A DNA stretch of 16,884 nt from a virus: the UHGV virus genome UHGV-0068632. One strand, given 5' to 3'. The notes beneath the pieces are model-generated. The model saw only the letters and a program-made list of their open reading frames with translations. It searched no databases and was not told where the DNA came from. Shown here piece after piece: positions 2,585-16,847 of the stretch (the stretch's first letter is position 1; each line of letters opens with the position of its first letter). The position numbers were made by a program, and so were the translations under genes.

Positions 2585-4924
2585 ATGGCTACCAGTGTAG
2601 GTACAATTTATTACGAAGTTGATGCAAAAACTGGTCAACTTCTCGTTGCACAACGACAGGCAGACCAGGCCTTTGACCGTATAGAGCGCGGCGCAAAACA
2701 GGCTGACCGCCAGGTAAACACCCTGAAAACATCCATCAAGGCACTGACCAGGGTTATCCATTTGCTAATTGCTGCCGAGGCTGTGCGCCAATTTATGGAT
2801 ATGGCGGAGCAAGCCAAAATGCTTCGCGTAAAAATCAAATTGCTTACAGGTGAAGCGGAGGCAACGGAACGGGTTTTCAACAGACTGAAAGAAATATCAA
2901 AAGAAACAGGCCAAAGCCTCAAGGATACTGGTGCCCTGTGGCAAGGTCTTGCTATATCGCTAAAAAACACATCCGCCACAGAAGGCCAGGTGCTCAACCT
3001 GGTCAGCACGCTGCAAAAACTTGGTAACTTGGGCGGCGTGTCTGCGGAACAACTATCAAACTCCATGCTTCAGTTCCGCCAGGCTATTGATGCTGGCGTG
3101 TTGCAGGCGGAAGAGTTCAACTCAATACGTGATAACACCCCAACAATCATACAGGAAATGGCCCGACAGATGGGGTTATCTATGGGGCAGTTCCGCGCCG
3201 AAATGCTGGACGGCAAGATCACGGCTGAAAGGATGCTCAACGCGATCCAGGCGGCTACGCAGGAAACAAACGAGAAGTTTGCACAGTTACCGCGCACGTC
3301 CGGTATGGCTTTTAATGAGCTTAAAGTCGAGGTGATGGGACTTGTCGAACAACTTGATGATCTTTTCGGCATATCAGATGGCGTTGTGTCAGCTATCGAC
3401 TTAATAACTGGTGGCGTTGAGGGATTAGGTAAAGGCGCAAAATTCGCCGCAACCTGTTTCAATACACTAAAAACGGCTGGCAGTGAGTTTATCGACATGT
3501 TTGATGATGTTGCTGTTAAAGCTGGTGAGGTGGCGGAAGAGATTATCAGGATGGTAACGCCAATCAAAGCGCTAATGGATGGCTACAAATGGATGAAGGA
3601 GATCATTGATAAACGCAAGAATGAGCTAAACAGCAACAACGAAAAGAAATTCGGCCCTACAGTCGGTAAGGTCATGACGTTTGCAAATGACATCAAAAAT
3701 GCGACCGCCGCTTATGATGAGTTTATGCAGAAACAGGGTGAGGCTGATGACGGCAAGATCACCGGATTCGATCAGCCAGTTGGCAAGCCGAAAAAAGGGA
3801 AAAAAGACAAGAAATCTGAAGCTGATCGGCTTGGTGATGAAGGCATAAAAGTATCCGACCAGTACAACAAAGACGCCGCAGCTATGCGCAAAGCGTTAGA
3901 GAACGGCAAGGCCATTGATGCTGCATTCGCCCAGGGTAAAATCACTCTCCTTGAGTACCGCGCCGCGCAAAAAGGGATAGGTAAGGAACTGAAGGAAGAA
4001 TTAGCGCAAATTCCGGTAGATGAATTGCGTGATAAATGGGCGCAAATAGTAAGCCCGATGGATCAGCTTAAAGGTGAGGTTGACCCTATCCAGCAGGTGC
4101 AGAATGAATGGGCCGTCCGTAAGCAAATGCTTATCGACCTGGGCGTTACTGAAGCGCAACAGAAACAGGAACTGTTAGCCTATGAGCAACAGATCCGTGA
4201 TCTGAAGTGGGAACAGTGGCAGGCACAAAGCGATACAAACGGCCTTATCGGTGATTGCGTTAATGGCCTAAAAGGTGGTATGAGCAATGCACTTGTTGGC
4301 CTGTTAAATGGTACTCAATCATTGAGTGATGTTTTTGCTAACTTAGGCAGCAATATCCTCGGGAATATCGGTAACAGGCTTTCAGACATAGCTGCAAACT
4401 GGATAGCAGATCAGATCATGATGGAAACGCAAAGCAAAGCGACTCAGGCAAGTACCACGGCGGGCGCGGTAGCGGCGCAAGGCCAGATTGCTGCGGCGGC
4501 GGCCCCGGCGGCGGCGGCAACAGCGGCGTCAACTGGCGGCGCATGGGCGGCGGCTGGTTCTGCGGCACTCACTGCGATCATGTCGCTGGCTACGTCAATT
4601 TTCGGCGGCGGTCGCTTTAATGGTGGTAGCGTTATTGGTGGCAATATGTACCGCGTAGGGGAACACAACAGGCCGGAGCTATTCCAGACATCTAACGGAA
4701 ATCAATATATGATCCCAGGCGAGAATGGCAGGGTTATTCCTGGGCGTGATATTGGCGGTGGCGGCGGCATTAGTATGCCTGTCAATATCAACATTCAGAC
4801 CACAAACGGATTTAGCGACGAAGACAGTCGCAGACTTGAGCAAACAATGGAACGTGTAGCAATGAAGATGATAACAAGGGAATCACAAAGACCTGGAGGA
4901 ATATTGCAACCGCGCCGCAAATAA
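2585..4924 (+). CDS. Tail tape measure protein, 779 aa
   Basis: Large ORF in the expected position, with RBS gagg 8 nt upstream. Has the mostly helical N-terminal region and the Ala/Gly-rich hydrophobic segment (QASTTAGAVAAQGQIAAAAAPAAAATAAS...) typical of tape measure proteins. Followed by gpM/L/K/I/J homologues. Confidence 0.9.
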   Translation: MATSVGTIYYEVDAKTGQLLVAQRQADQAFDRIERGAKQADRQVNTLKTSIKALTRVIHLLIAAEAVRQFMDMAEQAKMLRVKIKLLTGEAEATERVFNRLKEISKETGQSLKDTGALWQGLAISLKNTSATEGQVLNLVSTLQKLGNLGGVSAEQLSNSMLQFRQAIDAGVLQAEEFNSIRDNTPTIIQEMARQMGLSMGQFRAEMLDGKITAERMLNAIQAATQETNEKFAQLPRTSGMAFNELKVEVMGLVEQLDDLFGISDGVVSAIDLITGGVEGLGKGAKFAATCFNTLKTAGSEFIDMFDDVAVKAGEVAEEIIRMVTPIKALMDGYKWMKEIIDKRKNELNSNNEKKFGPTVGKVMTFANDIKNATAAYDEFMQKQGEADDGKITGFDQPVGKPKKGKKDKKSEADRLGDEGIKVSDQYNKDAAAMRKALENGKAIDAAFAQGKITLLEYRAAQKGIGKELKEELAQIPVDELRDKWAQIVSPMDQLKGEVDPIQQVQNEWAVRKQMLIDLGVTEAQQKQELLAYEQQIRDLKWEQWQAQSDTNGLIGDCVNGLKGGMSNALVGLLNGTQSLSDVFANLGSNILGNIGNRLSDIAANWIADQIMMETQSKATQASTTAGAVAAQGQIAAAAAPAAAATAASTGGAWAAAGSAALTAIMSLATSIFGGGRFNGGSVIGGNMYRVGEHNRPELFQTSNGNQYMIPGENGRVIPGRDIGGGGGISMPVNINIQTTNGFSDEDSRRLEQTMERVAMKMITRESQRPGGILQPRRK

Positions 4925-4927
4925 ACG

Positions 4928-4958
4928 AAACCCCGGTACAATGCCGGGGTTATCTTTT
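4928..4958. terminator. Bidirectional hairpin terminator
   Basis: CCCCGG-tacaatg-CCGGGG at 4931-4949 followed by TTATCTTTT. Lies between the tape measure stop (4924) and the stop of the minus-strand ORF at 4957. Confidence 0.6.
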
Positions 4959-5133
4959 AGTTATTCTCAAAACTTGTATATCCTCTTTCAATTTTCCCGC
5001 CTCTTACACTTCTTGCAAATACTGCATCATTATGTTTGAAAAATGGTTCAGTATATGTGTCTCCTTTACTATCCATCCATTTCACGATCCAGGCTATACG
5101 TTTTACATTGCTTTTATTTGCCTGGTTTTTCAT
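4957..5133 (-). CDS. Small hypothetical protein, 58 aa (MKNQANKSNVKRIAWIVKWMDSKGDTYTEPFFKHNDAVFARSVRGGKIERGYTSFENN)
   Basis: Found by hand; one codon under the track cutoff. Strong RBS ggagg about 9 nt upstream of the ATG at 5133. The overlapping + strand track ORFs 5032-5289 and 5043-5228 lack an RBS and look like low-complexity antisense artefacts. Confidence 0.5.
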   Translation of the reverse strand: MKNQANKSNVKRIAWIVKWMDSKGDTYTEPFFKHNDAVFARSVRGGKIERGYTSFENN

Positions 5134-5151
5134 TTTATTTTCCTCCGCAAA

Positions 5152-5244
5152 TTACAATCTTCCGTTTCTGGCTATATAGCTGCGAGAAAACATCACCAAC
5201 CAAATATTCCAGATCTCCCTCCAGGTGAATTTATCGTCCTCCAT
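5152..5244 (-). CDS. Possible micro-ORF, 30 aa (MEDDKFTWREIWNIWLVMFSRSYIARNGRL)
   Basis: RBS gaggtg upstream of the ATG at 5244 overlaps the TGA stop of the 84-aa gene, and its own stop sits just upstream of the RBS of the 58-aa gene. Very short, so low confidence. Confidence 0.25.
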   Translation of the reverse strand: MEDDKFTWREIWNIWLVMFSRSYIARNGRL

Positions 5245-5251
5245 ACCCACC

Positions 5252-5506
5252 TCACTTATGGCAACCGCGAACGCCAGACAATTCATTGAATTTATGGTGT
5301 TCAACAATCACCCACTCTTTCAGATCCTGGCTATAGACTCGCCAGTCTAAATTGGCGCGGAAGGCGTAGCCGTAACCGTCTTTCAATTTTTTGGGTGACG
5401 CATTCTTGTTTAAAAACGCGTTCAAAAGTTCCTTTGCTTTTTTGACTACATGTCCCGGCGCGTTTTTCTGTGCTTTCAGATTTTTGTCAATCGCTACCAG
5501 TTTCAT
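5252..5506 (-). CDS. Basic 84-aa protein, tentatively RelE/ParE-superfamily-like (candidate toxin or mRNA interferase)
   Basis: Complete ORF in the track. Net charge about +9. The segment KKLKDGYGYAFRANLDWRVYSQDLKEWVIVEHHK resembles, by eye, the beta-strand core and C-terminal His/Tyr region of RelE/YoeB/YafQ-type toxins. This is pattern recognition only, not an alignment. Confidence 0.55.
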   Translation of the reverse strand: MKLVAIDKNLKAQKNAPGHVVKKAKELLNAFLNKNASPKKLKDGYGYAFRANLDWRVYSQDLKEWVIVEHHKFNELSGVRGCHK

Positions 5507-5523
5507 AACTCACCCCATCATCC

Positions 5524-5678
5524 TTAGTTAAGTGCCTTCAGGAAGAAGTCCCGGTATTCATCTTCTTTTGCATTCATCATGAATTGACCGTATTTGAATG
5601 CGTCGTCGAAACCCTTAACGATTGCTATTTCCACTTGTTCGAATGCGTTGTTTAGCATTACCACTACATAGCGTTTCA
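5524..5678 (-). CDS. Small hypothetical protein, 51 aa (MKRYVVVMLNNAFEQVEIAIVKGFDDAFKYGQFMMNAKEDEYRDFFLKALN), possible partner of the 84-aa protein
   Basis: Strong RBS aggagg 6-7 nt upstream of the ATG at 5678. The track's longer 76-aa version starting at 5754 runs through the promoter motif and has no RBS, so the internal start is preferred. Lies 17 nt upstream of the 84-aa gene. Confidence 0.55.
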
Positions 5679-5744
5679 TTTTGGGCCTCCTTCGTTGGTA
5701 CTGCTTTTCTTCTTGCTTTCTATATACATCTTGATGCGTGATAT

Positions 5745-5830
5745 GTGAAGCCATTTTGTAAACTAGCTATAATCATTGTGATGAAGATCTCATTTTTTGC
5801 GTAGAATCGCGTAAAAGTATATACAAAATG
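5745..5830. promoter_or_regulatory. Divergent promoter/operator region carrying the shared motif pair
   Basis: gtgaagccattttgta at 5745-5760 is identical over 16 bp to 2528-2543. A perfect TATAAT lies at 5768-5773 and a GATC at 5786-5789. The motif recurs in reverse orientation as tatacaaaatg at 5820-5830. Confidence 0.4.
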
Positions 5831-5848: not shown

Positions 5849-6202
5849 ATGCCTGAAGTGTTCCGATGGACACCACAAAGAAGCTACAGCGTAAACAGTG
5901 AGCCTAACGTGTCTGTCATTAAGCTGGGTGATGGGTATGAACAGCGCCAGACAAAAGGGATTAACCCTTTACTTGATAGCTACAGCCTGGTTTTTAAAGG
6001 CACAAGCGCCGGATGCGGTGACGCCGGAAACGTGGCGCTCCAAGTTGACGCATTTTTAAGGGCGCGTTGCGCGGTCGAGGCGTTTTACTGGACTCCATCA
6101 ACTGACGGGGTGCAAAGGCTTTTTGTATGCAGAAAGTGGAGCATGACGAAAGACGGCCCGGTATGCACGCTAAACGCAACTTTTGAGCAAGTTGTCAATT
6201 AA
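5849..6202 (+). CDS. Minor tail protein, lambda gpM-like, 117 aa
   Basis: Matches my recollection of lambda gpM along its length: FRW near the N-terminus, GDGYxQR, WTP, CxKWS, and the C-terminal FEQVVN. RBS ggggga 4 nt upstream. Confidence 0.9.
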   Translation: MPEVFRWTPQRSYSVNSEPNVSVIKLGDGYEQRQTKGINPLLDSYSLVFKGTSAGCGDAGNVALQVDAFLRARCAVEAFYWTPSTDGVQRLFVCRKWSMTKDGPVCTLNATFEQVVN

Positions 6203-6638: not shown

Positions 6639-6842
6639 TTAAGGTAACTCCACTTCGTTAAATGTAACAAGCACCCCTTGATTTTCTTTATTTATAATTA
6701 TGAAGGCATTAATTGAAGGCAGACATCTTTCCACGCGGTAAACGTCACCAATATCTAAACTGTAATATTCTGTTAATTCTCTATTGTTCCCTTTAGCAAA
6801 ACCCGTAAACCTAACCATTTTTTGACCGTCGTACTTTAACAT
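6639..6842 (-). CDS. Hypothetical protein, 67 aa, cassette 3
   Basis: ORF in the track. RBS agga 6 nt upstream of the ATG at 6842. Lies 9 nt downstream of the preceding gene's stop. No family recognised. Confidence 0.65.
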   Translation of the reverse strand: MLKYDGQKMVRFTGFAKGNNRELTEYYSLDIGDVYRVERCLPSINAFIIINKENQGVLVTFNEVELP

Positions 6843-6850
6843 ATACAGTC

Positions 6851-7099
6851 CTATAGGTTATCACGCAGATAATTAACGCCTTTGTCAGTGACGAATGAGT
6901 GATTAACCTGGTTTTCATCCGTCATGATGATGAATGACTTTTCCTGTAGGTATTTCGCTTTTGGGTACAGCGTTAAACAGACCTGGTACAGTATCCCGCG
7001 CTCAATCAGCAAATCAATAAATTCGTGCTCATGATAACCGACGAGGCGGGCGGCTTGTTTCAACGTGTACACATAATCGCCGTGATTGCGCCGCCCCAT
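6851..7099 (-). CDS. Hypothetical protein, 82 aa, possible helix-turn-helix DNA-binding protein
   Basis: ORF in the track with RBS aaggcgg upstream. The segment YTLKQAARLVGYHEHEFIDLLIERGIL has the spacing of an HTH motif of the excisionase/AlpA-like type. Judged by eye only. Confidence 0.6.
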   Translation of the reverse strand: MGRRNHGDYVYTLKQAARLVGYHEHEFIDLLIERGILYQVCLTLYPKAKYLQEKSFIIMTDENQVNHSFVTDKGVNYLRDNL

Positions 7100-7108
7100 G
7101 TTGCCGCC

Positions 7109-7456
7109 TTATTTATCGAATGCGCCCAGGTTATCTATGCAGAAGTCTTTCGCAGCTTTTTCGTATTCGCGTTTTGCTTGCGGATCGTCTGCCGGGAAAC
7201 CTTTTGCGTGTATTTCACCAGGGCAAGACTGATCCATAGAATCAGCAAATTCAACATTGACGTTAAAGTTAATATCTTTCGGATTCATGTTTTCCACCTC
7301 ATCAATTATCTGCACCGGATTAGCGGCATATTTCACTGGATGGCCTAAACTACATTCAAGAATCCTTCCTTCTTCCAAAGCTGCCTCTTCGCTATCAAAT
7401 AATCCGAAACACTCCTTGCAACCACTTAACCACACATCAAGACTATATTTTTGCAT
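7109..7456 (-). CDS. Acidic hypothetical protein, 115 aa, cassette 3
   Basis: ORF in the track. RBS gagagg 8 nt upstream of the ATG at 7456. About 23 Asp/Glu against about 11 Lys/Arg (net charge near -12). Contains a CxxC pair (CKEC). No family recognised. Confidence 0.7.
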   Translation of the reverse strand: MQKYSLDVWLSGCKECFGLFDSEEAALEEGRILECSLGHPVKYAANPVQIIDEVENMNPKDINFNVNVEFADSMDQSCPGEIHAKGFPADDPQAKREYEKAAKDFCIDNLGAFDK

Positions 7457-7468
7457 TTCGTTAACCTC

Positions 7469-7624
7469 TCATTTGACAGGTTCGATTCTGTACCCCAAAA
7501 CGCGTTCGTCTTCAGCGAGTAATAGCGCGTCAGTCAGTGCCTCGCCTTCGTCTTTATACAGAGCTACAGTCATTTCCCTGCCACCTGACAGGAATACCTT
7601 CAACCTCCACACCTTATCAGCCAT
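7469..7624 (-). CDS. Small hypothetical protein, 51 aa (MADKVWRLKVFLSGGREMTVALYKDEGEALTDALLLAEDERVLGYRIEPVK), first gene of cassette 3
   Basis: Strong RBS ggagg 6 nt upstream of the ATG at 7624. The track's 76-aa version starting at 7699 has no RBS and extends into the promoter region. Stop lies 12 nt upstream of the next gene. Confidence 0.55.
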   Translation of the reverse strand: MADKVWRLKVFLSGGREMTVALYKDEGEALTDALLLAEDERVLGYRIEPVK

Positions 7625-7628
7625 CTCA

Positions 7629-7739
7629 CACCTCCGCGCCATTTTGTTAACTGTGCTTCCGTTTGAGTAAAATATACATATTGTATAAACCGCGATCAAT
7701 CCATTTTGGTATGATTTAGCGTGACGCAGATCACAAAAT
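7629..7739. promoter_or_regulatory. Divergent promoter/operator region carrying the shared motif family
   Basis: Motif variants at 7629-7641 (ccattttgttaac), about 7669-7681 (catattgtataaa) and 7701-7715 (ccattttggtatgat, containing the extended -10-like TGGTATGAT). agatcacaaaat at 7728-7739 is identical to 15004-15015. Confidence 0.4.
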
Positions 7740-7753
7740 CAGAAGGTGAGAAA

Positions 7754-8458
7754 ATGCGCAATATACCTACAGAGATGATTATTGATTCCGTGGACGCTGG
7801 TGTGGGCGCGGTGATTGACTTGTTCGAACTGGACTTGTCGCCCCTGGGTGGCGAGGTTATCCGCTTCCATTCCGGCGCGAATGGCTATTACGGCCCGGTT
7901 ATCTGGAAGGGATTAACTTACAACAGCTACCCGATCGAGGCTACTGGCTTCGAAATGAAAAACGAGGGCGTTTATTCGCGGCCTCAAATGGTTGTAGCCA
8001 ATATCGGCGGGCTAATCACAGGGATGAATAACGACTTCAACGACCTGCGAGGAATGAAGGTTACGCGCCGCCAGGTGGAAGTAAAATACCTGGACGCCGT
8101 TAACTTCCCAAACGGCAATCCAGACGCAGATCCATCTATTGAGGCTGTATCTTTTTACGTCGTGGAGGCCATGAGCGAGGAAACAGCGGATCAGGTGCAA
8201 TATGAGCTGTCAACGCCAATTGATGCTGATAAGGCCGTTATCCCTGGGCGCACCATCCTTGCTGACGTTTGCCAGTGGCAATACAGAGGCGACGGGTGTA
8301 TGTACGCTGGCGGACCAGTAGCAAACGATAAAGACGAGCCGACAAGCGATCCTAAAGCCGACAGATGCAGCCACCGTCTAAGCGGTTGTCGTTTGCGTTT
8401 CCCGCGTCCAAATCCGTTACCGATTTCCTGTTTCCCTGGTTCCAGTAAGGTAGGTTAA
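7754..8458 (+). CDS. Minor tail protein, lambda gpL-like, about 234 aa
   Basis: Extended match to my recollection of lambda gpL: TGFE, SRPQ, GMxxDxxxL, VTRRQV, FLDAVNFPNGN, AVxPGRxxLAxxCxWxYRGDxC, CSHRLSGCRLRF. The ATG at 7754 follows gaaggtgag; the track's start at 7721 is a GTG inside the conserved leader motif. Confidence 0.9.
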   Translation: MRNIPTEMIIDSVDAGVGAVIDLFELDLSPLGGEVIRFHSGANGYYGPVIWKGLTYNSYPIEATGFEMKNEGVYSRPQMVVANIGGLITGMNNDFNDLRGMKVTRRQVEVKYLDAVNFPNGNPDADPSIEAVSFYVVEAMSEETADQVQYELSTPIDADKAVIPGRTILADVCQWQYRGDGCMYAGGPVANDKDEPTSDPKADRCSHRLSGCRLRFPRPNPLPISCFPGSSKVG

Positions 8459-9679: not shown

Positions 9680-12600
9680 ATGAGTAGCGGCGGCGGCAAA
9701 GCAAAAACACCAACTTTAATTAACGATAATCTATATCACAAACAGTTTTATCGTGTACTCGACATTATTTCAGAAGGTCCGATTTATGGTCCTGTTAATA
9801 CCAATGCGCCATTAAACAGCGTAATGCTTAATGACACCCCTGTAACTGACGCGAACGGCAATACCAGCATCCCCGGTATTAGCGTAGCGTGGCGCAATGG
9901 TACGATAGATCAATCACCGATTAACGGTTTTAACGCCATTGAATCAACCGTTATTGTTAACGCACAGGTTAAACACGATACACCAATAATCAGGACCGTT
10001 TCCGATCCTAACGTAAACCGCGTTCGCCTGAATATCGGCGTCGATTCACTTGTACAATCTGACGAGCAAAGCAATCAACATAACACATCGGTTATGATGA
10101 TGATTGACGTGAAGCCTTCGTCTTCTTCTACGTGGACGCTTGTTAAAGACGTTACTATAGGCCCAGGTAAGATCAGCGGAGAATATCTTGAAGCGCATAT
10201 TATCAATGCACCAGATGAAAAACCGTTTGATATTCGCGTTCGCCGTGTAACCGCTGATAGCACAAGCGATCTGTTGCAGAATGATACGCGATGGAGTAGC
10301 TACAGCGAAATAATCGACGATAATTTGTCTTATCCTCACACCGCTGTAGCTGGCGCGGTAATTGACCATGATCAGTACGCTGACACGCCTACCCGCACCT
10401 ATCACCTTCGCGGGCTGATTGTTGATATTCCTGATAACTACGACCCGGAAAAGCGCACTTATTCCGGTTTGTGGCTTGGCGGCTTCAAACAGGCGTACAC
10501 CAATAACCCAGCATGGATCTTCCGCTATCTGGTTAAAAACGAGCGTTTCGGCCTTGCTCGTCACGCTGGCTATATTGACGTTGACGACGGCGCATTATAT
10601 ACGCTTTCTCAATACTGCGACCAGTTGGTTGATGATGGCTACGGCGGCCTTGAGCCTCGCATGACGCTTAACGCTTACATCACAGAGCAAATGAGCGCCC
10701 GCGACTTACTGGACAATATCGCCGGGATGTTCAGGGGTATCGCGTTATGGGACGGGCAACGCCTTACCGTGATGATTGATGCACCACAAGACCCGATCGC
10801 CACCATTACAAATGCAAATGTCGTTGATGGCGCGTTTACTCGTTCAAGTATCGCCCGCGCAGAATGCTACAACGCCGTGATCGTATCATGGACTGACCCG
10901 GAAAACGGATGGGAGCAATCAAAAGAGTATGTAGCAGACGATGAACTGATCGCCCGTGATGGTTACAACGAAACCACGTTAGAGGCGTTCGGGTGCACAT
11001 CACGCGGGCAAGCATACCGCGCGGGCAAGTGGCTGATAGAAACAGCAAAACGCGAGCCGTCAAAATTCACGTTTAAAATGGCGCGTGACGCGATTCACTT
11101 TACGCCAGGGGATATTATCGAGATACTCGACAATAACCGCGCAGGCGCTCGTTTAGGCGGCCGCATCGTTGCGAACAACGGCAAAGTAATAACGGTAGAT
11201 AAGGTTGACGCCAATTATATCGCCGCTGGGGATACAATCAGCCTTCTTGATAGCGATGGCAAGTTTAAAAAGCATCAGATCACCGGGGTGAGCGGAAACA
11301 AAATCACACTGGCGGCGGCCCCGTCATGGATTCGAAACGGCACTGTTTTTGCTGTATCCACTGAATCAGCAAAACCCGTTTTGTGCCGGATCACCAGTGT
11401 AGCCGAAACAGAAAATAACAGCGTGTACACCATCGAGGCCGCACAGCACGACCCGAACAAGCAAGCAGTGGTCGATGAAGGCGCAATATTTGAAGTCAAC
11501 AATGACACGCTTAACCATTTCCGCGTGCCGAACATTGAAAATCTGAAGGTGGTAAACATTGGATCGGAAACAATTCAATGTCGCGCCACATGGGAAACGC
11601 AGACAACAACGCATCGTATGACATTTGAGATCCGCATATATAATGCAGATGGTGCGGTGGTTAAAAGCTATGAAACAACGAAATACAGTTATGATTTTTA
11701 TGGCATTGACGCTGGCGTGTATTCTTTAGGGGTTCGCGGAAGAAATGACACTGGCATGAAGGGCGCGGAAAGTATTGTGGATCTGGTTATTGGTGCGCCA
11801 GCAGCGCCAATAGGTGTTAACTGGGTACCAGGTGTATTTCAGGCTACCGTATACCCGATAAGTAAGACAACGCTAACCACTGATACAGCGTATGAATTCT
11901 ACTATGCAGGGGAAAACCAGATCACAGATCCGGCAAAAATAACCACGGCGGCACAGTTTACCGGGCGCGGGTATCAGTGGACGTTCGGCGGAATGAACAC
12001 GGGCCATACTTATTACGTTTATGTGCGTACACGTAATGCTTTTGGCGTGTCAGACTTCGTTGAAGCATCAGGTAAGCCGACAGAAAATTTTGATGAAATT
12101 AGCGATTACGTCACCAAAGACGTGATGAATTCCGAACAATTTAAAGAAATGGTGGGCGACATTAAGGATCTTGGCGATCGCACTGACATTATCGAAAGTG
12201 CAACTCAAGACCTTAAAACAGCTACTGATACCCTAAGCGGAATAACTGAAGGCTTAAGAACTGATACTGATAATTTAATTACAGAAACAGAATCAATTAA
12301 AGCTGATACTGATTCCCTTAAAAAAGACACTGAAGACCTTTACAAGAAAGTCGAAGAAAACGCCGATGAAATAGGTAAACATGAGGTAAGAATTGACTCA
12401 TTAGAGGTATCAAGCGAAAACGTAGATAATGAACTGGCACAGACAAAAGCAAGCCTACAAAACGCATCGCTTGCTCTTATTAATAATTCGCTTGCTCAAA
12501 CTAATACCAGAAGAACGCTGACAGCTCAGATCAAAAACGTGGATTATGAAACTAAGGCGCAAATAGATCGCATTGATAACGTGATTGTCAGTGAAAAAGA

Positions 12601-14599
12601 AGCAAGAGCGGAGGCAATGGAGACAATTACCGCCGAAATCGACACGATGGATAAAAACATCAAAGGTGAGATTGCGCGCGTAGATACTGCCATTGCCAAT
12701 GAGAGCCAGGCAAGGGCTGATGCCATCAGTGAAGTTAGCGCAAACATTGACGCACTTGATAGTAAAACAGATGCCAGTGTTAATCGTCTTGATCAAGCTA
12801 TCGCAGATGAGGCCAGCGCACGCGCACAGGCTATCAGCAATGTCAATGCGAGCATGACAAATCTTGATAACAAGGTTACAAGCAACGTTTCTAGACTTGA
12901 TCAGGCAATAGCTGACGAATCAAGCGCAAGAGCAGAAGCCGATGATCAGTTAATAGCAAAAAGCGAAAAACTTGATGGTGATCTCGCTATGGCAAGGGCA
13001 AGCCTACAAAACGCTTCGCTTGCTCTCATCAATAATACATTGTCTCAGACAAAGACAAGGCGCACTCTCACAGCGGAGTTCAAACGCGGACAAAGTGAAA
13101 CTAAAGCACAAATTGACCGTATTGATAATGTCATTACTGACGAAAAACAGGCAACAGCGGAAGCGTTTGAAACTATCACAGCAGAAATGAACACGATGGA
13201 CTCAAACATTAAAGGAGAAATATCACGATTAGATAAAGTGATCGCGACTGAAACGCAAGCAAGATCTGAAGCTATAAGTAGTGTTAATGCAAGCATAAAG
13301 ACGCTAGAAAGCGACACTGAAGCCAGCGTTAACCGTCTTGATCAGGCAGTTGCTGACGAGGCCAGCGCCCGCGCACAAGCTATCAGCGGAGTAAATGCAA
13401 GCATCAGCACGCTTGATAGCAAGGTTACAAGCAATGTGACCCGTATCGACAAAGCTATTGCAGATGAGACGCAGGCCCGCACAGACGCAATAAGCAACCT
13501 TAACTCATCGCTTACCAGTACGATTAATTCTAAAGTATCTGAAGTATCAACAGCACTTTCTACGCATGAAGCATCAAGCGCGGAAAAATTCAGCCAGATC
13601 TCAGCGTCTTTCGAAGCTGTAAACTCAAGCATCACGGAATGGTCGCAGACCATGACAACGGCGGACGAGGCATTATCAACCAAAATTGATCAGTTAACAG
13701 TAACCGTTAATGGGAACACAACAGCGATCGAGACGACATCGAAAGCGTTAACCGACTTCAAAGGTAATGTTGATGCGTCATGGTCAATCAAGATTGCTAC
13801 TGATAACAACGGCATGAAATACGCTACAGGTATGTCGCTTGGCCTGACTGGTAGCGGGACTAACGTTCAATCGCAGTGTATTTTCCTCGTTGACCGCTTC
13901 GTGTTAATGACCGCAGCAAACGGCACATATACAACGCCTTTCTATGTGTCTAATGGTGCAATGTATGTGAAAGAAGCGTTTATTAAAAACGCATCAATAG
14001 GTACAGCTAAAATTGCAGATGCAGCCATTACTATGGCTAAAATTGTTAATGAAATAAAATCATCAAACTATGTTGCTGGTTCTAAAGGTTGGAGGATAAC
14101 ACAAAGCGGATCATCAGAATTTAACGATGTTGTGGTAAGGGGCGAAATCCATGCTAATAGCGGTAAATTCAAAGGAACTGTAGAAGCTACATCCTTTGTT
14201 GGTGATGTCGCATCTACTAACGTTATACCGCAATCATCATTCCCTGGGACAAGTACAAGCGGATCTCGATCTGTTACGAAGACGTATAAAGATTCATCAT
14301 CAAGCTCGCTTTCGAAAACAGTTTTCGTAATGATTCCTTACCATCTTACTTATTATACTTATTCAGGATCATCAACAATAAAAGTAACAATTGATATTAA
14401 TGGCAATAGCAAAACATATAACGTAGTAAGGGCGGCATCATCGCCTCAATTCGGATTTACGGTATCACATTGCGTAACTGGGATTACTGCTCAAACAGTT
14501 ACGATAAAAATAACAGAGGAATACACCAACACCGGAACATCAGCAGAAAGAAGGCCAGGTCTTGCACTTGTTACAAGAAGCTCAGGATCATGGTCATAA
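9680..14599 (+). CDS. Tail tip / host specificity protein, lambda gpJ-like, 1639 aa
   Basis: Collinear similarity to lambda J over the N-terminal roughly 800 aa (for example SEGPIYGPV, YHLRGLIVDIPDNYDPEKRTYSG, LSQYCDQLVDDGYGGLEPRMTLNAY, FGCTSRGQAYRAGKWLIETA). Followed by FN3-like segments, a roughly 480-aa repetitive coiled-coil region and a distinct C-terminal domain. Confidence 0.95.
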   Translation: MSSGGGKAKTPTLINDNLYHKQFYRVLDIISEGPIYGPVNTNAPLNSVMLNDTPVTDANGNTSIPGISVAWRNGTIDQSPINGFNAIESTVIVNAQVKHDTPIIRTVSDPNVNRVRLNIGVDSLVQSDEQSNQHNTSVMMMIDVKPSSSSTWTLVKDVTIGPGKISGEYLEAHIINAPDEKPFDIRVRRVTADSTSDLLQNDTRWSSYSEIIDDNLSYPHTAVAGAVIDHDQYADTPTRTYHLRGLIVDIPDNYDPEKRTYSGLWLGGFKQAYTNNPAWIFRYLVKNERFGLARHAGYIDVDDGALYTLSQYCDQLVDDGYGGLEPRMTLNAYITEQMSARDLLDNIAGMFRGIALWDGQRLTVMIDAPQDPIATITNANVVDGAFTRSSIARAECYNAVIVSWTDPENGWEQSKEYVADDELIARDGYNETTLEAFGCTSRGQAYRAGKWLIETAKREPSKFTFKMARDAIHFTPGDIIEILDNNRAGARLGGRIVANNGKVITVDKVDANYIAAGDTISLLDSDGKFKKHQITGVSGNKITLAAAPSWIRNGTVFAVSTESAKPVLCRITSVAETENNSVYTIEAAQHDPNKQAVVDEGAIFEVNNDTLNHFRVPNIENLKVVNIGSETIQCRATWETQTTTHRMTFEIRIYNADGAVVKSYETTKYSYDFYGIDAGVYSLGVRGRNDTGMKGAESIVDLVIGAPAAPIGVNWVPGVFQATVYPISKTTLTTDTAYEFYYAGENQITDPAKITTAAQFTGRGYQWTFGGMNTGHTYYVYVRTRNAFGVSDFVEASGKPTENFDEISDYVTKDVMNSEQFKEMVGDIKDLGDRTDIIESATQDLKTATDTLSGITEGLRTDTDNLITETESIKADTDSLKKDTEDLYKKVEENADEIGKHEVRIDSLEVSSENVDNELAQTKASLQNASLALINNSLAQTNTRRTLTAQIKNVDYETKAQIDRIDNVIVSEKEARAEAMETITAEIDTMDKNIKGEIARVDTAIANESQARADAISEVSANIDALDSKTDASVNRLDQAIADEASARAQAISNVNASMTNLDNKVTSNVSRLDQAIADESSARAEADDQLIAKSEKLDGDLAMARASLQNASLALINNTLSQTKTRRTLTAEFKRGQSETKAQIDRIDNVITDEKQATAEAFETITAEMNTMDSNIKGEISRLDKVIATETQARSEAISSVNASIKTLESDTEASVNRLDQAVADEASARAQAISGVNASISTLDSKVTSNVTRIDKAIADETQARTDAISNLNSSLTSTINSKVSEVSTALSTHEASSAEKFSQISASFEAVNSSITEWSQTMTTADEALSTKIDQLTVTVNGNTTAIETTSKALTDFKGNVDASWSIKIATDNNGMKYATGMSLGLTGSGTNVQSQCIFLVDRFVLMTAANGTYTTPFYVSNGAMYVKEAFIKNASIGTAKIADAAITMAKIVNEIKSSNYVAGSKGWRITQSGSSEFNDVVVRGEIHANSGKFKGTVEATSFVGDVASTNVIPQSSFPGTSTSGSRSVTKTYKDSSSSSLSKTVFVMIPYHLTYYTYSGSSTIKVTIDINGNSKTYNVVRAASSPQFGFTVSHCVTGITAQTVTIKITEEYTNTGTSAERRPGLALVTRSSGSWS
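12449..13546 (+). repeat. In-frame tandem duplication (2 x 549 bp, 183 aa each) inside the gpJ-like gene
   Basis: Unit 1 begins gcaagcctacaaaacgcatcgcttgctctt at 12449 and unit 2 begins gcaagcctacaaaacgcttcgcttgctctc at 12998. The proteins ASLQNASLALINNSLAQTNTRRTLTAQ... and ASLQNASLALINNTLSQTKTRRTLTAE... are collinear. Each unit holds three shorter repeats of about 36 aa of the RLDQAIADEASARAQAIS type. Confidence 0.8.
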
Positions 14600-14606
14600 A
14601 AAATAA

Positions 14607-14632
14607 CCCCGCTTCGCGCGGGGTTTTCTTTT
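14607..14632. terminator. Bidirectional intrinsic terminator between the J-like gene and the lipoprotein gene
   Basis: CCCCGC-ttcgc-GCGGGG at 14607-14623 followed by TTTTCTTTT. Lies 8 nt after the J-like stop codon, and the minus-strand lipoprotein stop overlaps the T-tract. Confidence 0.65.
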
Positions 14633-14879
14633 AGTAGTTAGCTACACAATTCGACGGGCTACCTATGCGGCGCATGTTGTGATCGAGTTCATGACACCAT
14701 TGACCAGTATATGGCAGTTTTTCAGTGTCATATACAAGATGACCATTAGCATCATAGACGATTTCTTGTGGAATCACTCCGCTATTTGGCAGGTTATGCA
14801 ATGCAGCTTCTTTGTCAACAGCGCAACCAGTAAGAGCAACAGCCGCAGCGAATAAAACCACTTTGAACATGTTTTTCAT
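14631..14879 (-). CDS. Small outer-membrane lipoprotein, 82 aa, in the Cor/Llp position (candidate receptor-blocking superinfection exclusion protein)
   Basis: N-terminus MKNMFKVVLFAAAVALTGC has a signal peptide and lipobox L-T-G-C with Ala at +2. RBS gagga 6-7 nt upstream. Encoded convergently just downstream of the receptor-binding J-like gene, where T1/phi80-type Cor and T5 Llp genes are found. Assigned by position and type, not by sequence homology. Confidence 0.7.
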   Translation of the reverse strand: MKNMFKVVLFAAAVALTGCAVDKEAALHNLPNSGVIPQEIVYDANGHLVYDTEKLPYTGQWCHELDHNMRRIGSPSNCVANY

Positions 14880-14975
14880 TTTTTAATCCTCGTTCTTGTT
14901 AGCTCATCCGGTTCATCCGGTGGCTTAAATATCCGACAAAACCACATTTCGTATATTGATATAAATCAATAAATA

Positions 14976-15023
14976 CATTTTGTATAAGTCAAAAATGTAA
15001 CATAGATCACAAAATGGTAGAAT
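14976..15023 (+). promoter_or_regulatory. Candidate promoter and conserved leader for the tail fibre gene
   Basis: cattttgtataa at 14976-14987, catagatcacaaaat at 15001-15015 (GATC at 15005-15008), and the extended -10-like TGGTAGAAT at 15015-15023, about 34 nt upstream of the ATG at 15057. Confidence 0.45.
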
Positions 15024-15056
15024 TATTCCGTTAATTAACATAATGGAGTCATTGCG

Positions 15057-16847
15057 ATGATTTATACAACGGGAACAATTGCCATTAACGGCAATACTGT
15101 TACAGGCACGGGAACAAACTTTTCCGCGCCGCTTTCTCTCATCCGTGTAGGTTGCACGCTCATTGCCATTAGCAATCCTATCCAGATCTTTACCATCACA
15201 GAAATTAAGAGCGGTACTGAACTGTCAGTGACGCCAGCGGCTAACCCTGCAATTGCTGCCGGGGCAAAATTCAGCATTCTGCTTTCTGACTCTATCTCAG
15301 TTGATGGGCTTGCCCAGGATGTAGCGGAAACACTTCGTTTTTATCAGGAAAAAGAAGACGAAATATCCAGCGCAATAGATGGCAGCAATATTGGCTTAGG
15401 TCCAGAGCCGCGCGATTGCGTCGATATATCAGGCGATCCGTCTTCTTACGTTGGCTTTTTGCGCATAAAGGAAACGACTAAGGGTTTTCCTTCTGTAGCG
15501 GCTGGTGAATCATTTTTGAGTGGATTTATCTGTCAACGAGACACGACGCCTTCATATACAGGCGTCTTTGTCGGTTGGGCTACGCGATCACTTTATACGT
15601 ATACATGGGTCGCAACATCAGGTCCGAACTGGACACGACACGCAAGAAAAGATGAGGTGGATAGGCTTGTTCAAAGAACAGGAGAAACTCGCGTACGCGC
15701 TCAAAACGCAAATAAATTCCTTACCGTCTATGATTCAGGATCGTGGGGTTATTATGACTCAGAGGCTAGTAAATGGCTACCGCTTCCAGTTCTTGCTGGA
15801 GGCACTGGTGCGGGAAACGCAGAAGAAGCAAGAAATAATTTAAATCTTGGTGAAAGCAACGCGGTTAAATTCAAAAACCTTACGTTAATAGGGGCGCTAG
15901 ATGCAAATTTAGGCATGCTCGTAAAAACTGGAAGAGACTGGAATACTCAGCACACTGACAATATCCAAAAATTTATACCAATGGCAGGAAGCACAAACGG
16001 ACCCGCCGGAGCAATGGTACTCGGTGGCTTCCATGTGCAATACAGCACAAATTACGCTGTGCAATTCGGGGGTCGAAATTCCGGTTTTTGGGGTAGAACA
16101 ATTGAAAACGGAACAGTTCAGGAATGGCGTCAACTAGCTACGCTTAACACATCCGGTCAAAAATGGACTGCCGGTCAGCATTTTGTGACGACAAAAATTA
16201 ACTCTTATGATTTCACAAGACGTTTAACTATCGATGTGATAGAAAACGCAAAAACAAACGCACGGTTACGCTTATGGGGATCAGAAACAAGGCAGTCCGT
16301 TTTAGAATATGGACTCTCGAACGCTGAAACCGATGAGTATAATACATATGGCTTTTATTGCCAGCTTAACCCAGACGGAGTAATTAGTTTTCAGGTTAAC
16401 GGCGTAGTAAACTGCACAGCAGTTAATCAGACTTCAGATCGCGATCTGAAGGACAACATTCAGGTTATAGGTGATGCAACTGAAGCAATCCGTAAAATGA
16501 ACGGGTACACCTACACCCTCAAGGAAAACGGCCTGCCTTACGCTGGCGTTATCGCTCAAGAGGTAATGGAGGCGCTGCCGGAGGCTGTGGGATCGTTTAC
16601 TCATTACGGTAAAGCATTACAAGGCCCGACCACTGACGGCAACGAGCTACGCGAGGAAACGCGTTACCTCAATGTTGACTACGCTGCGGTGACTGGTTTA
16701 CTTGTTCAGGTGGCACGCGAAACAGATAACCGCGTCACCGAACTGGAGGAAGAAAACGCCAGCTTACGAGCTAACATTGCCGTCATGGATGAGCGGATCA
16801 CAAAACTTGAAGCGCTTGTCAGGCAGTTAACCGGAAGCGAAGAATAA
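15057..16847 (+). CDS. Tail fibre protein with C-terminal intramolecular chaperone (peptidase S74-like) domain, 596 aa
   Basis: RBS ggag 9 nt upstream. The C-terminal roughly 135 aa (TSDRDLKDNIQVIGDATEAIRKMNGYTYTLKENG...AGVIAQEVMEALPEAV...) matches the conserved self-cleaving chaperone module of endosialidase and T5 L-shaped fibre proteins, and ends in a coiled-coil (LEEENASLRANIAVMDERITKLEALV). Confidence 0.85.
   Translation: MIYTTGTIAINGNTVTGTGTNFSAPLSLIRVGCTLIAISNPIQIFTITEIKSGTELSVTPAANPAIAAGAKFSILLSDSISVDGLAQDVAETLRFYQEKEDEISSAIDGSNIGLGPEPRDCVDISGDPSSYVGFLRIKETTKGFPSVAAGESFLSGFICQRDTTPSYTGVFVGWATRSLYTYTWVATSGPNWTRHARKDEVDRLVQRTGETRVRAQNANKFLTVYDSGSWGYYDSEASKWLPLPVLAGGTGAGNAEEARNNLNLGESNAVKFKNLTLIGALDANLGMLVKTGRDWNTQHTDNIQKFIPMAGSTNGPAGAMVLGGFHVQYSTNYAVQFGGRNSGFWGRTIENGTVQEWRQLATLNTSGQKWTAGQHFVTTKINSYDFTRRLTIDVIENAKTNARLRLWGSETRQSVLEYGLSNAETDEYNTYGFYCQLNPDGVISFQVNGVVNCTAVNQTSDRDLKDNIQVIGDATEAIRKMNGYTYTLKENGLPYAGVIAQEVMEALPEAVGSFTHYGKALQGPTTDGNELREETRYLNVDYAAVTGLLVQVARETDNRVTELEEENASLRANIAVMDERITKLEALVRQLTGSEE

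What the first reader, a model, noticed from the sequence alone, without database searches (positions are those of the whole stretch)
14631..14879. Cor/Llp-position lipoprotein convergent with the J-like receptor-binding gene
An 82-aa lipoprotein (lipobox LTGC) is encoded on the opposite strand immediately after the J-like gene, sharing its terminator. In T1/phi80-type phages (Cor) and in T5 (Llp), a small lipoprotein next to the receptor-binding gene inactivates the phage's own receptor to prevent superinfection and protect progeny. If that holds here, this protein and the C-terminal domain of the J-like protein should target the same outer-membrane receptor. I cannot confirm sequence homology to Cor or Llp from memory.
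Basis: partly seen in the sequence, partly recalled or inferred. Interest (0 to 1): 0.5.

Follow-up and report, generated by a model that had tools for sequence, protein, structure and literature searches.

The report
Phage lipoprotein that blocks the LamB receptor
This small gene next to a prophage's tail-tip gene encodes a lipoprotein that most likely stops other LamB-using phages (lambda included) from infecting the host; a 94%-identical copy was already shown to do this in 2025, so the finding is real but not new.

Summary
Window 14631-14879 (-) encodes an 82-aa protein with a signal peptide and the lipobox LTG|C. It converges on the 1639-aa J-like tail-tip gene and shares a bidirectional terminator hairpin (14605-14625).

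It is not a Cor or Llp homologue. Both of those fall full-length in phrog_1119, while this protein matches only through its signal peptide. It belongs to a separate, narrow family (phrog_12984).

It is 94% identical to Lpp010 (mEp010 gp116). In published work (PMC11893012), expressing Lpp010 excluded the LamB-dependent phages mEp010, mEp044, mEp554 and lambda.

The family sits about 40 nt after the J stop codon in every locus examined, across four siphovirus lineages: mEpimmI, Queuovirinae, Dhillonvirus and one Drexlerviridae phage. The only BASEL phages carrying it are the four with LamB as terminal receptor.

Within a lineage the lipoprotein stays 94-97% identical while the J tip switches between unrelated types (18-25% identity). 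This suggests it targets the receptor, not the phage protein.

How the protein disables LamB is unknown. Two AlphaFold models were low-confidence. Already known; modest interest.

The parts
14631..14879 (-). CDS of the 82-aa prolipoprotein (stop codon included). It is an orthologue of mEpimmI 'type-C' Lpp010 and a member of phrog_12984.
   Evidence: ORF listing. phrog_12984 match at E=4e-27. 97.6% identical to the MagusPhagus lipoprotein and 91-94% to those of mEp010/013/044/554. Mostly synonymous divergence from close relatives.
14826..14879 (-). Signal peptide, residues 1-18 (MKNMFKVVLFAAAVALTG). It is cleaved by signal peptidase II before Cys19.
   Evidence: Read from the sequence. This is the only part that aligns with Cor, Llp and other lipoprotein models.
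14823..14834 (-). Lipobox L16-T17-G18-C19. Cys19 is the lipidated first residue of the mature protein, and Ala at +2 predicts outer-membrane sorting.
   Evidence: Cys19 is invariant in 25 aligned family members, and no member has Asp at +2. The lipobox pattern [LVI][ASTVI][GAS]C is the one used in PMC11893012.
14634..14825 (-). Mature 64-residue lipoprotein (about 7.2 kDa, pI 5.3). It holds the conserved motifs PNSGV and DTEKLPxTGQWC...RRIGSPSNC..Y, and two conserved Cys (C62, C78) that probably form a disulfide.
   Evidence: Alignments A1 and A3. Physical parameters. Residues 31-82 are 70-77% identical to lipoproteins of Seuratvirus, Nonagvirus and Dhillonvirus phages.
14887..14891 (-). Shine-Dalgarno sequence GAGGA, 7 nt upstream of the ATG.
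   Evidence: Read directly from the sequence.
14605..14625 (.). Bidirectional intrinsic terminator hairpin shared by the J gene and the lipoprotein gene.
   Evidence: Terminator scan hits on both strands. Folding energies of -16.0 and -19.7 kcal/mol, z -3.8 and -5.5. Annotated as a terminator in mEp010 and mEp013.
9680..14599 (+). J-like tail-tip / central fibre gene (1639 aa), the convergent neighbour.
   Evidence: Pfam domains FNIII-A_GpJ, Phage-tail_3, Ig_J, Ig_J_second and Phage_Tail_Tip. 74-82% identical to the J proteins of mEp010 and MagusPhagus. Homologous to lambda J up to about lambda residue 1038.
14168..14596 (+). Distal tip of J (residues 1497-1639, no Pfam model), the presumed receptor-binding domain, called 'type 1' here.
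   Evidence: The last 160 aa are 82.5% identical to MagusPhagus. They are 40-50% identical to the J tips of Seuratvirus and Dhillonvirus phages that also carry the lipoprotein, including the LamB-dependent Bas21, Bas23 and Bas24. They are unrelated (about 25%) to the 'type 2' tip of mEp010, mEp013 and Bas22.

Best explanation
The gene encodes a small outer-membrane lipoprotein that acts as a superinfection-exclusion factor against phages using the maltoporin LamB as terminal receptor.

The proposed sequence of events is as follows. The precursor is exported. It is lipidated and cleaved at Cys19. Because residue +2 is Ala, the Lol pathway sorts it to the inner leaflet of the outer membrane. The 64-residue mature part, probably stabilised by a C62-C78 disulfide, then acts on LamB from the periplasmic side, so that tail tips of LamB-dependent phages can no longer use it productively. 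In a lysogen this excludes the phage itself, its relatives and lambda. After lysis it would also keep progeny from being wasted on LamB in cell debris.

What is shown: the gene anatomy, its conservation and synteny, its association with LamB-dependent phages, and (for the 94%-identical orthologue, in the literature) the exclusion phenotype.

What is inferred: outer-membrane localisation, the disulfide, direct binding to LamB, and that this allele excludes this phage.
For: 1. It is 94% identical to Lpp010 (mEp010 gp116). The five differences are M4V in the signal peptide and E39D, I40V, A44G and N45S in the mature part. Lpp010 expression excluded mEp010, mEp044, mEp554 and lambda, and those mEp phages are completely blocked on a lamB knockout (PMC11893012).

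2. All 44 phage records holding a homologue were listed. In every locus examined, and wherever both matches were located, the gene lies about 40 nt after the J stop and converges on it.

3. The only BASEL phages among those 44 records are Bas21-24. These are the four isolates listed with LamB in the BASEL S5 table, where the word occurs five times (I take the fifth to be lambda itself). Bas20, which uses LptD and belongs to the same subfamily as carrier 9g, has a different gene in the slot and no homologue.

4. Within a lineage the mature lipoprotein is 94-97% identical while the last 95 aa of J are only 18-25% identical. This holds for window vs mEp010 and for Bas21 vs Bas22. The constant partner is therefore the receptor, not the phage tip. 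Lpp010 also excludes lambda, whose J tip is unrelated.

5. The slot is allelic with a known exclusion gene. The UMNK88 relative carries Cor there.

6. Signal peptide, lipobox, Shine-Dalgarno, its own terminator and purifying selection are all present.

7. There are precedents for periplasmic lipoproteins disabling outer-membrane receptors: Llp with FhuA and Rtp45 with LptDE.
Against: - No experiment exists for this allele or this phage. Its J tip ('type 1') differs from the tips of the phages shown to be excluded by Lpp010, which my comparisons of the mEp010 and mEp013 tips suggest are 'type 2', plus lambda's own.
- The window phage's receptor is inferred only from 40-49% identity of the J tip to Bas21/23/24.
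- mEp013 needs LamB and has an identical mature lipoprotein, yet escapes Lpp010. Exclusion is therefore not universal for LamB users.
- No binding to LamB has been shown.
- No sigma-70 consensus promoter was found upstream, so expression in the lysogen is unproven.
- The structure models are low-confidence (pLDDT 58 and 63), so there is no structural support.
Confidence: 0.8

Rival explanations
1. It is an exclusion lipoprotein that works after adsorption. It would block tail-tip opening, DNA ejection through the envelope, or a periplasmic or inner-membrane step, rather than inactivate LamB as a binding site.
For: The published assay was spot-plating only and did not separate adsorption from injection. 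mEp013 still infects Lpp010-expressing cells although it needs LamB, so LamB remains present and usable by at least one tip. Other exclusion lipoproteins, such as Ltp of Streptococcus phage TP-J34, act on ejection (own knowledge).
Against: The gene tracks receptor specificity, not the tape-measure or other ejection machinery, across four otherwise unrelated phage lineages. It excludes lambda as well as mEpimmI phages, and the one requirement those are shown to share is LamB. Both solved precedents at this locus type, Llp and Rtp45, act on the receptor.
Confidence: 0.12
2. It is a divergent member of the Cor/Llp family and blocks FhuA or another TonB-dependent transporter.
For: Same size, same lipoprotein design with two further cysteines, and the same genomic slot. 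A relative carries Cor there. There is a weak phrog_1119 hit at E=0.078.
Against: That weak hit covers residues 4-25 only, which is the signal peptide. Profile comparison with Cor gives 9.8% probability, and the alignments with Cor and Llp cover only 21-22 signal-peptide columns. As positive controls, Cor and T5 Llp both match phrog_1119 full-length at 8e-23 and 1e-19. Every carrier whose terminal receptor I found a record for (four mEp phages, Bas21-24) needs LamB.
Confidence: 0.02
3. It is a lipoprotein with a different role: an o-spanin-like lysis component, a Bor/Lom-type host-fitness moron, or a tail-assembly accessory. The exclusion seen on over-expression would then be a side effect.
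For: Small phage outer-membrane lipoproteins have several known roles. The exclusion result comes from plasmid over-expression. No promoter was identified here.
Against: There is no lysis cassette or i-spanin partner nearby, and the neighbours are tail genes. There is no match to any spanin, Bor or defence model. The exclusion is specific: per the paper, Lpp010 excluded only mEp010, mEp044, mEp554 and lambda, and Lpp021 excluded only the OmpA-dependent mEp021 and mEp515. The association with LamB-dependent phages is strict, including virulent ones.
Confidence: 0.04

Closest known systems
Lpp010 (mEp010 gp116), the 'type-C' lipoprotein of mEpimmI phages (Negrete-Mendez et al. 2025, PMC11893012); PHROG phrog_12984
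   Same: 77 of 82 residues are identical, with the same lipobox, length, position and orientation after J, and the same shared terminator. The window's phage belongs to the same group: its J, tail genes and side fibre resemble those of the mEp phages and MagusPhagus, and its relatives are prophages next to abgT.
   Different: There are four conservative substitutions in the mature part (residues 39, 40, 44, 45). The partnered J tip is of a different type (about 25% identity over the last 95 aa). No experiment has been done on this allele.
Llp of phage T5, the FhuA-blocking lipoprotein
   Same: It is a small (about 60-residue mature) acylated lipoprotein encoded next to the receptor-binding gene. 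It blocks the phage's own receptor and protects progeny. It also has two cysteines besides the lipid-bearing one.
   Different: There is no sequence similarity beyond the signal peptide. It falls in a different PHROG. The cysteine spacing differs: C26/C73 of the Llp precursor against C62/C78 here. The target is a plugged TonB-dependent transporter, where Llp works allosterically, whereas LamB is a plug-less trimeric porin. T5 llp is divergent from the oad gene, while this gene converges on J.
Cor of phi80, N15, T1 and lambdoid prophages (NCBIfam NF047972, phrog_1119)
   Same: It occupies the same genomic slot in a related prophage (UMNK88), is an outer-membrane lipoprotein of the same size, and gives an exclusion phenotype.
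   Different: It is not homologous (hhalign probability 9.8%). Cor excludes FhuA-dependent phages. In UMNK88 it is accompanied by two extra ORFs after J, probably a separate receptor-binding protein, whereas here the tip of J itself appears to carry specificity.
Rtp45 of phage Rtp, the LptD-blocking exclusion protein (bioRxiv 10.1101/2025.07.07.663478)
   Same: It is an exclusion factor encoded in the host-recognition locus downstream of the J-like gene of small siphoviruses. It binds its receptor from the periplasmic side and prevents binding of the phage's receptor-binding protein.
   Different: The receptor is different (LptDE). Its mechanism, physical displacement of loop EL4, is known only for that pair. 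No sequence relationship was detected in any library search here, and a direct comparison was not run.

Membership tests
mEpimmI type-C Lpp / phrog_12984 (LamB-associated exclusion lipoprotein) | Full-length sequence similarity to family members | tested here: met
   phrog_12984 at E=4e-27 over residues 7-82. 94% identical to Lpp010. 25-sequence alignment with 19 invariant columns.
mEpimmI type-C Lpp / phrog_12984 (LamB-associated exclusion lipoprotein) | Signal peptide with lipobox and invariant lipidated Cys | tested here: met
   LTG|C at residues 16-19. Cys19 is invariant across the family.
mEpimmI type-C Lpp / phrog_12984 (LamB-associated exclusion lipoprotein) | Located immediately downstream of, and convergent with, the J-like tail-tip gene | tested here: met
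   31 nt between the two stop codons in the window. The same arrangement is seen in MagusPhagus, mEp010, mEp013, KurtStettler, EP23, CSP1C, GottfriedDienst, 9g, AS5 and CAjan, and in most of the genome contigs shown.
mEpimmI type-C Lpp / phrog_12984 (LamB-associated exclusion lipoprotein) | The carrier phage uses LamB as terminal receptor | not testable with these tools
   Shown for mEp010/013/044/554 and Bas21-24. For the window phage it is inferred only from 40-49% identity of the J tip to Bas21/23/24.
mEpimmI type-C Lpp / phrog_12984 (LamB-associated exclusion lipoprotein) | Expression excludes LamB-dependent phages | not testable with these tools
   Shown in the literature for Lpp010, with the exception of mEp013. 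Not done for this allele.
Cor (NF047972 / phrog_1119) | Sequence homology of the mature domain to Cor | tested here: not met
   The phrog_1119 hit is at E=0.078 and covers residues 4-25 only. No NF047972 hit. hhalign probability is 9.8% over 22 signal-peptide columns. Positive control: UMNK88 Cor hits both models.
Cor (NF047972 / phrog_1119) | Small outer-membrane lipoprotein encoded in the tail-fibre / host-specificity region | tested here: met
   Cor occupies the equivalent slot in a related prophage.
Cor (NF047972 / phrog_1119) | Excludes FhuA-dependent phages | not testable with these tools
   Indirect evidence points to LamB instead.
Llp (phage T5) | Sequence homology of the mature domain to Llp | tested here: not met
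   hhalign aligns only 21 signal-peptide columns. There is no PDB sequence hit to any Llp chain at E<=10. T5 Llp itself matches phrog_1119 full-length.
Llp (phage T5) | Llp-like fold | tested here: inconclusive
   The two AlphaFold2 models have mean pLDDT of 58.3 and 63.1. Foldseek against the PDB gave no match at E<=0.001. The models are too poor for that null result to carry weight.
Llp (phage T5) | Binds the periplasmic face of its receptor and changes the extracellular loops | not testable with these tools
   Needs a complex prediction or an experiment.

The most novel reading that the evidence does not exclude
This family disables a plug-less trimeric porin by a mechanism unlike the two solved cases, Llp-FhuA allostery through a plugged barrel and Rtp45-LptD loop displacement. 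For example, it might enter or cap the maltoporin lumen from the periplasm. It would then also throttle maltodextrin uptake, giving the lysogen a metabolic phenotype. It would also explain how one lipoprotein excludes phages with at least three unrelated LamB-binding tips (type 1, type 2, lambda) while single tip variants such as mEp013 already escape. The family has no detectable relatives outside about three 50% clusters and no confident predicted fold, so it could also be a new fold.
Probability: 0.3. Interest if true: 0.55.

Novelty: already known. Interest (0 to 1): 0.25.

Why it matters
Practically, the gene marks this prophage as a LamB-targeting phage. It predicts that lysogens resist lambda and many virulent Seuratvirus, Nonagvirus and Dhillonvirus phages, which matters for phage-therapy cocktails and for predicting receptors from genome sequence.

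Conceptually, it is a third, sequence-unrelated solution to the same problem solved by Cor/Llp (FhuA) and Rtp45 (LptD). It sits in the same genomic slot, which shows that the slot is an exchangeable module of tip plus receptor blocker.

The open part is the molecular mechanism on LamB, together with the escape by mEp013. The gene's existence and function are already published.

Tried and rejected
- Pfam, NCBIfam and PADLOC gave no informative hit. Pfam has no model for Cor or Llp either, so its silence says nothing about them.
- A profile search of PDB sequences gave only noise at E>0.4.
- AlphaFold2 was run on the full-length protein and on the mature part with a 23-25-sequence alignment. Mean pLDDT was 58 and 63.
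- Foldseek of the better model against the PDB gave no match below E=1. I treat this as inconclusive, not as evidence for a new fold.
- An exhaustive HMM search of 1.84 billion representative proteins found only three family clusters plus one spurious stretch in a 4467-aa protein, so no deeper alignment was available.
- The word-indexed search with the J tip returned only four proteins. I therefore did not attempt a structure of the tip.
- The sigma-70 scan of 14300-15300 found no promoter, and reading the upstream sequence by eye found no convincing -35/-10 pair.
- I considered that the lipoprotein might bind the phage tip as a decoy. I rejected this because the tip types are unrelated while the lipoprotein is constant.
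- I considered an o-spanin role. I rejected it on context.

Full report
OBSERVATION

The ORF at 14631..14879 on the minus strand encodes 82 residues: MKNMFKVVLFAAAVALTGCAVDKEAALHNLPNSGVIPQEIVYDANGHLVYDTEKLPYTGQWCHELDHNMRRIGSPSNCVANY. It has a basic N-terminus, a hydrophobic core and the lipobox LTG|C with Cys19. Ala at +2 predicts sorting to the outer membrane by the established +2 rule, which is an inference. A GAGGA Shine-Dalgarno lies 7 nt before the ATG.

The 1639-aa J-like gene (9680..14599, +) ends 31 nt from the lipoprotein stop codon. Between them sits an 8-bp GC-rich hairpin (14605-14625) flanked by T-runs on both strands. It folds far better than shuffled sequence in both orientations (z -3.8 and -5.5). 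The homologous site is annotated as a terminator in mEp010 and mEp013.

The gene is under purifying selection. Synonymous versus non-synonymous codon differences are 12:2 against MagusPhagus and 14:5 against mEp010.

CONTEXT

The window is a siphovirus tail module. In order it holds:
- major tail protein
- tape-measure protein
- minor tail proteins
- a lambda K-type minor tail protein (annotated as a C40 peptidase in relatives)
- tail assembly protein I
- J
- the lipoprotein
- a side tail fibre with an S74 chaperone domain

Its closest relatives are Escherichia phage MagusPhagus and the temperate mEpimmI phages mEp010, mEp013, mEp044 and mEp554. It also resembles E. coli prophages that lie next to abgT. 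The exact 82-aa protein occurs in 141 blocks of public assemblies. In the five places shown it lies next to an S74 fibre gene, and in four of them a J-like gene of variable length (1393-1639 aa) is called on the other side.

WHAT IT IS NOT

Pfam, NCBIfam and PADLOC give nothing informative. The Cor model phrog_1119 is hit only at E=0.078, over residues 4-25, which is the signal peptide.

Profile comparison of the family alignment with a genuine Cor (from the related UMNK88 prophage) gives 9.8% probability over 22 signal-peptide columns. Comparison with T5 Llp aligns only 21 signal-peptide columns.

As positive controls, that Cor and T5 Llp both match phrog_1119 full-length (8e-23 and 1e-19), and Cor matches NCBIfam NF047972. 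The protein is therefore not a member of the Cor/Llp family. No PDB chain is similar in sequence.

WHAT IT IS

It belongs to phrog_12984, labelled 'lipoprotein' (E=4e-27). This is a narrow family: 27 clusters at 90% identity, and only three clusters at 50% identity among 1.84 billion representative proteins.

Invariant positions are C19, P31-N-S-G-V35, P37, T52-E53, T58-G-Q-W61, R71, G73, N77, C78 and Y82. C62 is nearly invariant. C62 and C78 probably form a disulfide, which is an inference.

The protein is 97.6% identical to the MagusPhagus lipoprotein and 91-94% identical to those of mEp010/013/044/554. Against mEp010 gp116 it differs at M4V in the signal peptide and at E39D, I40V, A44G and N45S.

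PUBLISHED FUNCTION OF THE ORTHOLOGUE

Negrete-Mendez et al. 2025 (PMC11893012) call mEp010 gp116 'Lpp010', the type-C lipoprotein. They report the following:
- mEp010, mEp013, mEp044 and mEp554 are completely blocked on a lamB knockout.
- Plasmid expression of Lpp010 excludes mEp010, mEp044, mEp554 and, unexpectedly, lambda.
- mEp013 is not excluded, although it needs LamB.
- A different lipoprotein, Lpp021 (type A), excludes the OmpA-dependent mEp021 and mEp515.

No other paper in the library mentions Lpp010 in this sense.

1. Distribution and synteny. The mature domain (residues 31-82) is 59-77% identical to small lipoproteins in 44 phage records. These span four lineages: mEpimmI, Queuovirinae (Seuratvirus and Nonagvirus 9g), Dhillonvirus (EP23, PNS1, Maverick, CS16, HH3) and one Drexlerviridae phage (Enterobacter phage AS5). 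Wherever I checked, the gene lies about 40 nt beyond the J stop and converges on it.

2. Link to LamB. The only BASEL phages in that list are Bas21-24. They are the four isolates the BASEL S5 table lists with LamB; the word occurs five times there, and I take the fifth to be lambda itself. FritzHoffmann (Bas20) uses LptD and belongs to the same subfamily as carrier 9g. It has a shorter J and a different 321-aa gene in the slot.

3. Two unrelated J tips. The window, MagusPhagus, EP23, CAjan and Bas21 share one type of distal J tip, which I call type 1. By their identity to the window's tip, Bas23 and Bas24 belong with them. mEp010, mEp013, Bas22, 9g and CSP1C share another, type 2. AS5 has a third. 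Types 1 and 2 are 18-29% identical over the last 95 residues, and neither aligns with the lambda tip beyond about lambda residue 1038. Both types include phages shown experimentally to need LamB. A 2026 preprint independently ties distal GpJ domains to LamB and notes the lack of homology with lambda.

4. Constant lipoprotein, changing tip. Within a lineage the lipoprotein barely changes when the tip type changes. Window versus mEp010 is 94% identical in the lipoprotein and 25% in the tip. Bas21 versus Bas22 is 97% and 18%. DNA similarity to the mEp phages starts exactly at the J stop codon. The lipoprotein's constant partner is therefore the receptor, not the phage tip. This argues against a decoy that binds the tip, and for action on LamB or a LamB-dependent step.

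5. An allelic slot. The related UMNK88 prophage has J, then two extra ORFs, then Cor on the opposite strand.

MECHANISM

The most likely mechanism is as follows. The protein is exported, lipidated and sorted to the inner leaflet of the outer membrane. It then acts on LamB from the periplasmic side, so that LamB-dependent tail tips cannot use it. In a lysogen this gives superinfection exclusion. In virulent carriers it protects progeny from LamB in cell debris. That second role is the one proposed for Llp and Cor.

mEp013 still plates on Lpp010-expressing cells while needing LamB. LamB is therefore not simply removed. Its conformation or accessibility is changed in a way some tips tolerate, which is an inference.

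The two solved precedents differ from each other. Llp acts allosterically on FhuA, and Rtp45 physically displaces a loop of LptD. LamB has no plug, so the details here cannot be borrowed from either.

My two AlphaFold2 models were low-confidence (pLDDT 58 and 63), and Foldseek found nothing. The fold is unknown. No sigma-70 consensus promoter was found upstream, so when the gene is expressed is also open.

RIVALS

- A post-adsorption block is not excluded by the published spot assays. I give it about 0.12.
- Membership of the Cor/Llp family with FhuA as target is refuted by sequence and by the receptors of the carriers (about 0.02).
- A spanin, Bor-like or assembly role does not fit the context or the specificity of exclusion (about 0.04).

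VERDICT

The gene is an allele of a protein whose exclusion activity was published in 2025, so it is already known. What remains open is the molecular mechanism on LamB, escape by tip variants, and whether this allele protects against its own type-1-tip phage. Interest is modest.

Noticed in passing
window 12412-12711 and 12961-13260 (inside J): There is a direct duplication with 549-nt spacing and 70% identity inside the coiled-coil part of J. J length varies from 1393 to 1707 aa among phages and prophages carrying the same or a near-identical lipoprotein. The mEpimmI paper also mentions repeats of different length in this region.
   Followed up: partly
window 14596-14600 (J stop) versus mEp010, mEp013, mEp044, mEp554: Megablast similarity to four mEp phages begins at or within two bases of the J stop codon (window 14596-14598) and continues through the lipoprotein gene, the intergenic region and the start of the side-fibre gene. 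The J tip upstream is of a different, unrelated type. This looks like a recombination joint that swaps LamB-binding tips while keeping the lipoprotein.
   Followed up: yes
L006 (E. coli UMNK88 prophage) 7274-8453: A related prophage has two extra ORFs (103 and 210 aa) after J, followed by a genuine cor gene on the opposite strand, in the slot the lipoprotein occupies here. This probably represents a separate FhuA-type receptor-binding module.
   Followed up: partly
window 4957-5754 and 6639-7456, minus strand: Two clusters of small ORFs (58-115 aa) run opposite to the surrounding tail genes, between the tape-measure gene and the minor tail protein genes. None has a lipobox. Homologous positions in MagusPhagus are annotated as hypothetical proteins. 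They look like moron-type accessory genes.
   Followed up: no
window 14880-15056: The 177-nt AT-rich spacer between the lipoprotein gene and the divergent side-fibre gene is about 91% conserved with the mEp phages but has no sigma-70 consensus match on either strand. Relatives annotate a 38-42-aa ORF here (window 14925-15041, -), which may be spurious.
   Followed up: partly
L004 (Shigella phage EP23) about 5920-6160; also phage PNS1: The lipoprotein gene is present and intact but not annotated in the EP23 and PNS1 records, including their RefSeq versions. The tblastn hit shows no annotated feature under it.
   Followed up: yes
L011 (mEp013) 2855-3103 versus L002 (mEp010) 2273-2521: The mature lipoproteins of mEp013 and mEp010 are 100% identical, yet the literature reports that mEp013 escapes Lpp010. 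The last 95 aa of their J tips are 66% identical, so escape probably maps to the tip. It also implies that mEp013's own lipoprotein may not exclude mEp013.
   Followed up: partly
L009 (phage T5) 2430-2663: In the T5 RefSeq record, Llp is named 'Cor superinfection exclusion protein' with gene name 'lpp'. Llp and Cor fall full-length into the same PHROG (phrog_1119), so these two classic exclusion lipoproteins are treated as one family there. NCBIfam's Cor model does not hit Llp.
   Followed up: yes
window 15057-16847 (+): This is a side tail-fibre gene (596 aa) with a C-terminal S74 intramolecular-chaperone peptidase domain. Carriers of the identical lipoprotein have fibres of 575-854 aa, and some relatives have 1160 aa, so this is a second variable host-range module right next to the first.
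   Followed up: no
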